In this document: in pieces, positions 56,563 through 56,751 of the stretch | Position numbering within the stretch: the first letter of the stretch is position 1 | Layout: every line of letters begins with the position of its first letter | IMG/VR virus record: IMGVR_UViG_3300029309_000006 | Coordinates: 31,753 to 95,752 of that record | Length of the DNA stretch: 64,000 nt | Source of the DNA: a virus | Reading direction: 5' to 3' (one strand) | Position numbers and translations under genes: made by a program | The notes under the pieces: generated by a model | What the model saw: only the letters and a program-made list of their open reading frames with translations | Databases searched by the model: none | What the model was told of the DNA's origin: nothing

Positions 56563-56567
56563 ATTAT

Positions 56568-56599
56568 TATTATCTTATAATTATTGTATTAAGTCTGTA
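56568..56599 (-). promoter_or_regulatory. Early-promoter-like motif, copy 2
   Basis: TACAGAC-TT-AATAC-N11-GATAATA. Confidence 0.75.
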
Positions 56600-56604
56600 A
56601 TTAG

Positions 56605-56747
56605 TGGACGTGGCAGGAATCGAACCTGCGTCCAAGTTAGTGTGACGCAATATGTAATACACTTCCGTACGCTCGCTTATATCCGTCGATAGTCGGCACC
56701 ACATACATATATTGTCTCCTATTTCTTGTCTACCCTATTTCACGCCC
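56605..56747 (-). ncRNA. Miniature tmRNA-like RNA (tRNA-like domain with short insert)
   Basis: Acceptor stem GGGCGTG/CACGTCC with G3.U70 and discriminator A; T-arm GCAGG-TTCGATT-CCTGC preceded by GGAC; stemless D-loop ending GAC; 143 nt. Confidence 0.8.
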
Positions 56748-56751
56748 TTAT

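What the first reader, a model, noticed from the sequence alone, without database searches (positions are those of the whole stretch)
56605..56747. 143-nt mini-tmRNA with intact alanine tRNA-like domain but no apparent mRNA-like domain
The - strand reads GGGCGTG-AAATAGGGTAGAC-AAG...CTT-GGAC-GCAGG-TTCGATT-CCTGC-CACGTCC-A. It shows tmRNA hallmarks: G3.U70 Ala identity pair, A discriminator, stemless D-loop ending GAC, and the GGAC linker at the SmpB-binding elbow. CCA is not encoded (CTA follows). A long P2-like stem (AAG/CTT, TAG/CTA, GAC/GTC, TATGTA/TACATA) closes only about 45 nt, whereas bacterial tmRNAs are typically about 350 nt with a tag ORF and several pseudoknots. The best resume-like context (ATATAAGC-GAG) has no in-frame stop within the RNA. 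Inference: an SmpB/EF-Tu decoy, or a tag-less rescue RNA that spares phage proteins from tagging or offsets host tRNA-cleaving defences.
Basis: partly seen in the sequence, partly recalled or inferred. Interest (0 to 1): 0.88.

Follow-up and report, generated by a model that had tools for sequence, protein, structure and literature searches.

The report
Phage tag-less mini-tmRNA with swappable arm
A marine phage carries a real 143-base RNA gene that keeps only the alanine-accepting, tRNA-like end of the bacterial ribosome-rescue RNA (tmRNA). This kind is known from one mycobacteriophage, but here it belongs to a large family whose constant frame carries an ever-changing, portable inner arm.

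Summary
Window 56605-56747 (- strand) matches both ends of the Rfam tmRNA model: 45.2 bits against a cut-off of 47, E 1e-16. The 271 central model positions are replaced by 45 nt. ARAGORN calls nothing there, and there is no tag frame and no pseudoknot.

It is not a recent pseudogene.
- The same frame recurs in about 115 IMG/VR stretches and gave 105 distinct sequences of 68-237 nt, in two paralogous types that differ by compensatory changes.
- G3.U70 is kept in 22 of 25 sequences in a sample found by synteny (selected for full pairing, G:U allowed). Where U70 was fixed by the search, 105 of 106 have G3.
- Four of five complete 65-70 kb relatives carry only this form. None of the five has a full tmRNA or SmpB.

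The interior is hypervariable (at least 46 unrelated classes) but almost always closed by a P2-like helix. In the window it is a portable nested module that also occurs free-standing in relatives.

The closest known thing is the 'TLD only' tmRNA of mycobacteriophage DS6A, which I re-detected at 43.2 bits. The likely host is a marine flavobacterium.

The most likely function is an alanylated SmpB/EF-Tu competitor that blunts host tagging. A tRNA-like scaffold or processing role is a serious rival. Function is inferred, not shown.

This scan has already found TLD-only phage mini-tmRNAs, including this same family, on other DNA.

The parts
56605..56747 (-). Whole TLD-only tmRNA-like RNA gene, 143 nt, from 5' G at 56747 to discriminator A at 56605
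   Evidence: Rfam RF00023 at 45.2 bits, model 1-374. Own covariance model R1 at 57.5 bits.
56741..56747 (-). Acceptor stem, 5' strand GGGCGTG. G3 forms the G3.U70 wobble.
   Evidence: All 7 pairs are kept in 25 relatives, with compensatory changes at 4 of them.
56728..56740 (-). D-loop analogue without a D stem (AAATAGGGTAGAC) with the GG of the elbow
   Evidence: Aligned to the tmRNA consensus GAu.cuGGaUUCGAC. Family consensus is AAATGGTTAG / ATAAGGTAAG.
56634..56727 (-). P2-like arm, made of portable module D (strands 56714-56727 and 56634-56646; conserved loops AAATAGGAG / CACACTAAC) with nested module E (56647-56713)
   Evidence: Constrained fold. A 96-nt copy at 94.8% identity stands free in L008, and 14 loci hold copies outside a TLD. 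Nesting map.
56630..56633 (-). GGAC linker between P2 and the T arm
   Evidence: alignment. In the family this linker is mostly TAAC or AAAC.
56613..56629 (-). T arm: GCAGG / TTCGATT / CCTGC
   Evidence: Two of its 5 pairs covary between type 1 and type 2.
56605..56612 (-). Acceptor 3' strand CACGTCC (U70 at 56608) plus discriminator A73 (56605)
56602..56604 (-). CTA trailer in place of CCA. The same trailer follows the TLDs and the tRNA genes found in the relatives, and the DS6A TLD.
56751..56875 (-). Module B: conserved pseudoknotted leader RNA that ends 4 nt before the TLD 5' end
   Evidence: RNAalifold on 11 copies finds 26 pairs, 6 with compensatory changes. Its 3' motif sits at a fixed 54-55 nt from the TLD start in the eight TLD-bearing copies measured; in L014 and L017 a tRNA-Met follows B within 3-4 nt.
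56876..56944 (-). Module A: conserved two-strand motif (ACGAGTAGCTTAATTAGG ... ACATAAGTGAATAG) closed by a covarying outer stem, with a variable insert hairpin
56949..57137 (-). Upstream 62-aa Cys-rich ORF, the syntenic anchor. The RNA block starts 5 nt after its stop.
   Evidence: 41 related loci were found with it. It has no Pfam or PHROG family.

Best explanation

Proposed mechanism, all inferred:
1. The RNA block is co-transcribed with the early 62-aa ORF.
2. Host RNase P cuts at G1 (56747). That cut also releases the upstream leader RNAs A and B.
3. The CTA trailer is removed and CCA is added.
4. Host AlaRS alanylates the RNA through G3.U70 and A73.
5. The Ala-TLD binds host SmpB and EF-Tu like tmRNA. 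Because it has no resume codon or tag frame, it competes with host tmRNA. It would titrate SmpB or occupy stalled ribosomes without tagging, so trans-translation tagging is blunted during infection.

The P2 arm projects from where the tmRNA body normally sits. It tolerates, and may display, swappable cargo hairpins.

What is shown: the anatomy, the conservation, the covariation, the absence of a tag, and the family's size. What is inferred: processing, charging, SmpB binding and the effect on the host.
For: - Best-scoring Rfam family is tmRNA, matched at both ends with the centre deleted. The two tandem copies in a relative behave the same way.
- The published TLD-only element of phage DS6A gives the same kind of hit: 83 nt, 43.2 bits, G3.U70, A73, CTA trailer.
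- Selection on the RNA: 12 of 12 pairs are kept in 25 relatives, 6 with changes on both sides.
- The G3.U70 wobble is kept in 22 of 25. Where U70 was fixed by the search, 105 of 106 distinct sequences have G3 rather than the helix-stabilising A3. RNase P and RNase Z do not need that wobble; AlaRS does (established tRNA-Ala identity rule).
- A P2 helix of at least 4 bp closes the interior in 99 of 105 distinct members, against 15 of 105 with shuffled interiors.
- There is no room for a tag. Members start at 68 nt, interiors fall in at least 46 unrelated classes, and the ARAGORN 'tag' in L006 lies inside a portable module.
- Four of five complete relatives have only this form, and none of the five has a full tmRNA.
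- No phage SmpB, so any partner must come from the host.
- Literature: a TLD-like molecule strongly inhibits tmRNA, perhaps by titrating SmpB (Mao 2009 as cited in PMC4131195). Peptidyl transfer to a TLD-only tmRNA occurs in vitro (Shimizu and Ueda 2006 as cited in PMC3895274).
Against: - There is no direct evidence of processing, CCA addition, charging or SmpB binding.
- The GAC/GGAC pair that I recall as SmpB-contacting is present in the window, but most family members have AGA...TAAC or AAAC instead.
- A minority of relatives have A3:U70 or other acceptor stems and discriminators, so alanine identity is not universal.
- The TLD and tRNA-Met are interchangeable directly after leader B, which fits a pure processing role.
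- The hypervariable, portable cargo suggests the arm rather than the frame may be the effector.
- The benefit to a phage of blocking trans-translation is not established.
Confidence: 0.45

Rival explanations
1. Natural tRNA scaffold or punctuation mark. The TLD is kept mainly as a minimal RNase P / RNase Z / CCA-enzyme substrate. It defines the 3' end of leader RNAs A and B, and it stabilises and releases the cargo hairpin carried in its arm. The cargo modules (D, E and others) are the effectors; the frame is a handle.
For: - Interiors fall in at least 46 unrelated classes on an invariant frame.
- 47 of 105 interiors have copies outside TLDs, inside scaffolds A or B or free-standing (nesting map).
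- Module B always ends 3-4 nt before either a TLD or a tRNA-Met, with its 3' motif at a fixed distance in the TLD-bearing copies.
- Relatives also carry 41-47-nt acceptor/T-arm minihelices with other acceptor sequences.
Against: - G3.U70 and A73 are retained almost without exception in two diverged paralog types, which processing enzymes do not require.
- Members with almost no cargo (68-74 nt) persist.
- The D-loop analogue is conserved.
- The two readings are not exclusive.
Confidence: 0.3
2. An alanine-charged frame used outside trans-translation. One option is a decoy for host toxins or defence enzymes that act on tRNA acceptor ends. Another is an Ala donor for a tRNA-dependent transferase.
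For: Only the retention of alanine identity elements and of an intact acceptor/T-arm. Defence systems carrying SmpB-like domains are predicted in the literature (CoCoNuTs, PMC11090510).
Against: No transferase, RNA-repair or tRNA-related protein was found among the ten larger early-region ORFs tested. Nothing specific points to this reading.
Confidence: 0.1
3. A decaying remnant: either a recently deleted full-length phage tmRNA, or an attP-type fragment of a host tmRNA or tRNA gene.
For: A distant cultured relative, Cellulophaga phage phi38:1, has a full-length tmRNA (87.6 bits). Phage Calle is reported with one tmRNA (PMC8776804).
Against: - 105 distinct sequences carry an invariant frame, compensatory changes and a conserved P2 helix.
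- Four of five complete relatives have only this form.
- Both halves of the TLD are present.
- The 27-nt 3' half occurs in no ordinary bacterial tmRNA or tRNA gene of 185,579 species genomes. It occurs only in 7 MAG contigs, each holding a complete mini-TLD.
Confidence: 0.03
4. A decoding tRNA-Ala that has lost its D stem.
For: Acceptor and T arm are tRNA-like. Rfam's tRNA model reaches its cut-off on two relatives only by borrowing flanking sequence (L010 at 37.5 bits, L006 at 29.2 bits).
Against: - No anticodon stem-loop. The arm is 94 nt, built of modules D and E.
- ARAGORN finds no tRNA.
- tmRNA outscores tRNA in the clan competition.
- The family's arms have unrelated sequences and loop sizes.
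Confidence: 0.02

Closest known systems
'TLD only' tmRNA of Mycobacterium phage DS6A (tmRNA Website tmID 11587; Hudson, Lau and Williams 2014, PMC4131195, citing Mao et al. 2009)
   Same: Both are phage-encoded. Both consist of only the tmRNA tRNA-like domain with G3.U70 and A73, a D-loop analogue without a stem, a P2 hairpin in place of the body, no tag, and a CTA trailer. Both give the same kind of sub-threshold full-span hit to RF00023: DS6A 43.2 bits and 83 nt at JN698994 28478-28560, window 45.2 bits.
   Different: No sequence relationship beyond the tmRNA consensus, and a different host phylum (Actinomycetota versus probably Bacteroidota). The window's arm is 94 nt of portable nested modules rather than a simple hairpin. 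The element belongs to a family of more than 100 variants in two paralog types and sits in a mosaic of other structured RNAs.
Bacterial one-piece tmRNA (Rfam RF00023), and the full-length phage tmRNA of Cellulophaga phage phi38:1 / Calle
   Same: Acceptor stem, G3.U70, A73, D-loop analogue, GAC...GGAC, T arm. The 3' end ...CCACTA is the same as in phi38:1.
   Different: No PK1-PK4, no resume codon, no tag frame, and 143 nt against about 360-400 nt. Bacteroidota MAG tmRNAs encode GTNNYALAA and GEESYALAA tags.
Mitochondrial tmRNA of jakobids (Rfam mt-tmRNA); from my own knowledge
   Same: A natural tmRNA reduced to the tRNA-like domain without a tag template.
   Different: It is an organellar descendant of a two-piece tmRNA that works with a nuclear-encoded SmpB. 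Here the element is phage-borne and would act on a host that has its own full tmRNA. The standard tmRNA model was the clan's best hit.
tRNA-like modules of bacterial and phage Y-RNA-like YrlA RNAs (PMC4201824)
   Same: A tRNA-like acceptor/T-arm/D-loop module joined to a second functional stem, and often phage-encoded.
   Different: YrlA scores only 18.6 bits against a cut-off of 69 on a relative. There is no Ro-binding helix, and no Rsr was looked for.

Membership tests
tmRNA (functional, Rfam RF00023) | tRNA-like domain: 7-bp acceptor stem with G3.U70, discriminator A73, T arm, D-loop analogue without D stem | tested here: met
tmRNA (functional, Rfam RF00023) | Score at or above the Rfam gathering cut-off (47 bits) | tested here: not met
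   45.2 bits. The shortfall comes from the missing centre.
tmRNA (functional, Rfam RF00023) | mRNA-like domain: resume codon and short tag frame ending in a stop | tested here: not met
   ARAGORN finds nothing. The interior is modules D and E, which occur outside TLDs. Frames are not conserved among copies. Family members start at 68 nt.
tmRNA (functional, Rfam RF00023) | Pseudoknots PK1-PK4 around the tag | tested here: not met
   271 model positions are replaced by 45 nt.
tmRNA (functional, Rfam RF00023) | Alanylation, SmpB and EF-Tu binding, entry into stalled ribosomes | not testable with these tools
   Needs biochemistry. Only the identity elements can be read from the sequence.
Phage TLD-only tmRNA (DS6A type) | Phage-encoded RNA that matches both ends of the tmRNA model, with the body replaced by a hairpin | tested here: met
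   Window. DS6A re-detected in the same way.
Phage TLD-only tmRNA (DS6A type) | Alanine identity elements retained under selection | tested here: met
   G3.U70 in 22 of 25. 105 of 106 have G3 opposite a fixed U70.
Phage TLD-only tmRNA (DS6A type) | Inhibits host trans-translation (the proposed activity) | not testable with these tools
   Literature suggestion only (PMC4131195).
Canonical tRNA (RF00005), tRNA-Ala | D stem and anticodon stem-loop with a 7-nt loop | tested here: not met
   ARAGORN finds 0 genes. tmRNA beats tRNA in the clan competition. Folds.
attP copy of a host tRNA/tmRNA 3' end | Identity of the 3' segment to a host tRNA or tmRNA gene, with only the 3' part present | tested here: not met
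   The 27-mer is absent from ordinary bacterial genes in 185,579 species genomes. The 7 hits are MAG contigs holding complete mini-TLDs. Both halves are present in the window.

The most novel reading that the evidence does not exclude
The TLD is one of three constant scaffolds (A, B, TLD) in a combinatorial phage RNA system. Short structured cargo modules (D, E and dozens more) are shuffled among these scaffolds by recombination. The alanine-accepting frame would serve to process, stabilise and deliver each phage's cargo, for example to SmpB, the ribosome or RNase R as a host-specific decoy. That would be a natural counterpart of engineered tRNA scaffolds and a new layer of phage-host RNA warfare.
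Probability: 0.2. Interest if true: 0.85.

Novelty: new variant of a known kind. Interest (0 to 1): 0.6.

Why it matters
TLD-only tmRNAs are invisible to ARAGORN and to Rfam at default thresholds. The literature I could search mentions them once, for DS6A. This case shows they are a large, selected family in marine flavobacterial-type phages.

If they block or hijack trans-translation, that would be a widespread and unstudied way for phages to manipulate ribosome rescue and protein tagging. The invariant alanine frame with a freely swapped, portable arm also gives a tractable natural example of modular RNA evolution. It points to several uncatalogued structured RNAs (A, B, D, E).

Tried and rejected
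- **Standard detectors.** ARAGORN on the window and the whole record found nothing. Rfam at gathering thresholds found nothing.
- **blastn against cultured phages.** The 801-nt region gave no match. The 41-nt 3' end hit only ordinary tRNA or tmRNA T arms, for example in Stenotrophomonas and Escherichia phages.
- **Tag frames.** ARAGORN's tag ERTEVYYIC* in L006 lies inside portable module E. The 23-aa AUG frame behind the AGGAG of module D is cut short by a stop in L015. Both were rejected as coding.
- **Module A as a displaced mRNA-like domain.** Rejected: the candidate frame varies with the covarying stem, and many TLD loci lack A.
- **Metatranscriptomes.** Only assembled contigs were available. 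Contigs from RNA libraries hold modules A+B and D/E. D/E has k-mer depth 110-290, against 0-4 over the neighbouring ORFs. None covers the TLD ends. They sum related phages and may include DNA, so they show neither ends, CCA nor expression of this gene.
- **Phage SmpB.** None in the record or in five complete relatives.
- **Neighbouring proteins.** Pfam and PHROGs found only replication, recombination and nucleotide genes. The small flanking ORFs match no family.
- **Cultured relatives searched with model R1.** No strong member was found. Tenacibaculum phage Gundel_1 and the Manatee Spring podovirus gave only weak tRNA-like hits of 20-25 bits.
- **Complex prediction** was not used, because it takes no RNA.

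Full report
**1. The observation**

- a 7-bp acceptor stem GGGCGTG/CACGTCC with G3.U70;
- discriminator A, followed by CTA rather than CCA;
- a 13-nt D-loop analogue without a stem, ending in GAC;
- a GGAC linker;
- a 5-bp T stem with loop TTCGATT.

ARAGORN finds no tRNA or tmRNA in the window or the whole record. Rfam at gathering thresholds reports nothing. In E-value mode the Rfam tmRNA model RF00023 aligns from position 1 to 374 at 45.2 bits (cut-off 47), with E 1.3e-16 for the 801 nt searched. Its 271 central positions are replaced by 45 nt. Lower-scoring families of the tRNA clan were suppressed in its favour. The match is far beyond chance. It falls below threshold only because the body of tmRNA is absent.

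**2. Genome and host**

The window is part of a 95.7-kb IMG/VR virus record. Its large terminase is 64% identical to an uncultured podovirus. It is 45% identical to Flavobacterium 'elemo' phages and 36-39% identical to Cellulophaga podophages. All runs that hold the stretch are marine metagenomes. A marine member of the Flavobacteriia is therefore the likely host.

The record encodes no SmpB and no tRNA.

**3. Relatives**

An exact search with the 3' half found one viral contig with two tandem mini-TLDs of 83 and 99 nt. Both hit tmRNA best. Using the conserved 62-aa Cys-rich ORF directly upstream as an anchor, I fetched 41 syntenic loci. A covariance model built from 25 TLDs (A1, R1) finds 29 strong matches in them.

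All 12 modelled pairs hold in all 25 sequences. That part is by construction of my extraction. What is not by construction is that six pairs show changes on both sides. Type 1 (GGGCGTG..CACGTCC, T stem GCAGG) and type 2 (GGGAGTG..CACTTCC, T stem GGCGG) differ by compensatory changes at pair 4:69 and at two T-stem pairs.

Exact 3' patterns recover 79 (type 1) and 36 (type 2) stretches in IMG/VR. These gave 105 distinct sequences of 68-237 nt.

**4. What is selected**

G3.U70 is kept in 22 of 25 sequences in the sample found by synteny (selected for full pairing, G:U allowed); the other three have A:U. Where U70 was fixed by the search pattern, 105 of 106 distinct sequences have G3 and only one has the helix-stabilising A3. 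The processing enzymes do not need that wobble, whereas AlaRS does (established identity rule). This is the main reason I think the RNA is alanylated.

The interior is the opposite. It falls in at least 46 unrelated sequence classes. Yet 99 of 105 members close it with an uninterrupted helix of at least 4 bp at the P2 position, against 15 of 105 after shuffling the interior (individual folds).

No member has room for, or conservation of, a tag frame. The one ARAGORN 'tmRNA' call (L006, tag ERTEVYYIC*) places the tag inside a portable module.

**5. Not a pseudogene, not attP**

Five complete (CheckV 100%) relatives of 65-70 kb were searched whole. Four have one mini-TLD at 35-40 bits. None has a full-length tmRNA or an SmpB.

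A full-length tmRNA does exist in a distant cultured relative, Cellulophaga phage phi38:1 (87.6 bits, with the same ...CCACTA end). It is unannotated in the record. Phage Calle is reported with one tmRNA (PMC8776804). The mini form may therefore descend from a phage tmRNA, but it is an old, stable state.

The 27-nt 3' half occurs in no ordinary tmRNA or tRNA gene of 185,579 species genomes. It occurs only in seven MAG contigs, each carrying a complete mini-TLD. Two Bacteroidota MAGs have normal tmRNAs with tags GTNNYALAA and GEESYALAA.

**6. The arm and the neighbourhood**

The window's 'P2 stem' is a portable module, D. It has conserved loops AAATAGGAG / CACACTAAC and a covarying closing stem, and it carries a nested module E. 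In relatives the same D+E stands free after the ORF, for example in L008 (96 nt at 94.8% identity), or sits inside another scaffold, A. E alone sits inside A or stands free. Overall 47 of 105 TLD interiors have copies outside TLDs.

Upstream of the window's TLD lie two further RNA modules:
- Module A (56876-56944).
- Module B (56751-56875), a pseudoknotted RNA with compensatory changes. Its 3' motif lies a fixed 54-55 nt before the TLD in the eight TLD-bearing copies measured. In two relatives a tRNA-Met follows B instead.

None of A, B, D or E matches an Rfam family. The whole block lies between the stop of the 62-aa ORF and the next promoter-like motif, so co-transcription with that early ORF is the simplest reading. 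That is an inference.

**7. Expression**

Only assembled contigs of public runs were available. Contigs from RNA libraries contain A+B and D/E at much higher k-mer depth than the flanking ORFs. They do not cover the TLD ends, they pool related phages, and they may include DNA. I treat this as no evidence either way.

**8. Mechanism**

My best reading, at about 45%, is this. RNase P and 3' processing plus CCA addition yield a mature RNA. Host AlaRS charges it. It binds host SmpB and EF-Tu and competes with host tmRNA without providing a tag template.

[quoted passage not shown] It also follows the reported peptidyl transfer to a TLD-only tmRNA in vitro (PMC3895274, citing Shimizu and Ueda 2006). 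I re-detected the DS6A element (JN698994 28478-28560, 83 nt, 43.2 bits, G3.U70, A73, CTA trailer). It is the same kind of object.

The main rival, at about 30%, is that the frame is a natural tRNA scaffold or punctuation mark. It would process the leader RNAs and present the cargo arm. The interchangeability with tRNA-Met and the portable cargo speak for it. The retention of G3.U70 and A73 speaks against it as the whole story. The two readings can be combined.

**9. Comparison and novelty**

The kind, a phage TLD-only tmRNA, is known but barely described. The new points are:
- the size of the family;
- its two paralog types;
- the invariant frame with a hypervariable, portable arm;
- the surrounding mosaic of uncatalogued RNAs.

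Earlier notes in this scan report TLD-only phage mini-tmRNAs on many other genomes, including this same marine family with 'a freely swapped interior'. My results were obtained independently and agree with them. I checked for that and found no anticodon loop here.

**10. Verdict**

The identity is supported, and the function is plausible but untested. I rate it a new variant of a known kind, with moderately high interest.

Noticed in passing
window 56751-56875 (-): Module B is a conserved pseudoknotted RNA. Its closing stem GAGAGGY/RCCUCUC, the hairpin GTGGAT/GTCCAC, and the loop-to-5' pairing ACWGGT/ACCWGT all covary. It ends 3-4 nt before a TLD or a tRNA-Met in every copy seen. It matches no Rfam family. 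It could be a ribozyme, a riboswitch or a processed leader.
   Followed up: partly
window 56876-56944 (-): Module A has two invariant strands (ACGAGTAGCTTAATTAGG and ACATAAGTGAATAG) between a covarying outer stem and a variable insert hairpin. Its 5' strand looks like a tRNA acceptor/D-arm: Rfam's tRNA model reaches 37.5 bits across A plus the next TLD in L010 (2701-2857).
   Followed up: partly
window 56634-56727 (-); L008:2697-2792: Modules D and E are portable and nest in one another and in scaffolds A, B and the TLD. D's conserved loop contains a Shine-Dalgarno-like AGGAG(G). E has the invariant strands GTATGTGG and GGAAGTGTATTAC.
   Followed up: partly
NC_021796.1 26806-27167 (-), locus L057 1498-1859: Cellulophaga phage phi38:1 has an unannotated full-length tmRNA (Rfam 87.6 bits). 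Its ARAGORN tag AQIEANMEAVNAILNLEVAVGV* is atypical and its end is ...CCACTA. The record instead annotates a hypothetical protein (gp041) on the opposite strand.
   Followed up: partly
L026:1605-1647, L027:3686-3732, L030:3293-3339, L040 (about 2262-2310): Relatives carry 41-47-nt acceptor/T-arm minihelices with a GGT elbow motif. They have other acceptor sequences and discriminators and no G3.U70. These are the smallest tRNA-like genes in these phages.
   Followed up: no
whole record G000 (95.7 kb) compared with relatives G004-G008: Complete relatives are 65-70 kb.
   Followed up: partly
window about 56565-56600 and 57140-57180 (-): A promoter-like motif (CAGAC..AATACAA..N9..GATAATA) sits directly before each small early ORF. 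The RNA block lies between one ORF's stop and the next such motif.
   Followed up: partly
3' trailers of the tRNA-like genes in L006-L046; JN698994 28561-28563: In the relatives the TLDs and nearly all tRNA genes are followed by CTA(A) after the discriminator, and so is the DS6A TLD. This may be a shared 3'-processing context.
   Followed up: no
NC_062747.1 73061-73129 and 68787-68896 (Tenacibaculum phage Gundel_1): There is a 69-nt TLD-like RNA with G3:C70, next to a tRNA cluster. There is also a 110-nt element with two T-arm-like hairpins inside one acceptor stem. Both are weak R1 hits of 20-25 bits.
   Followed up: no
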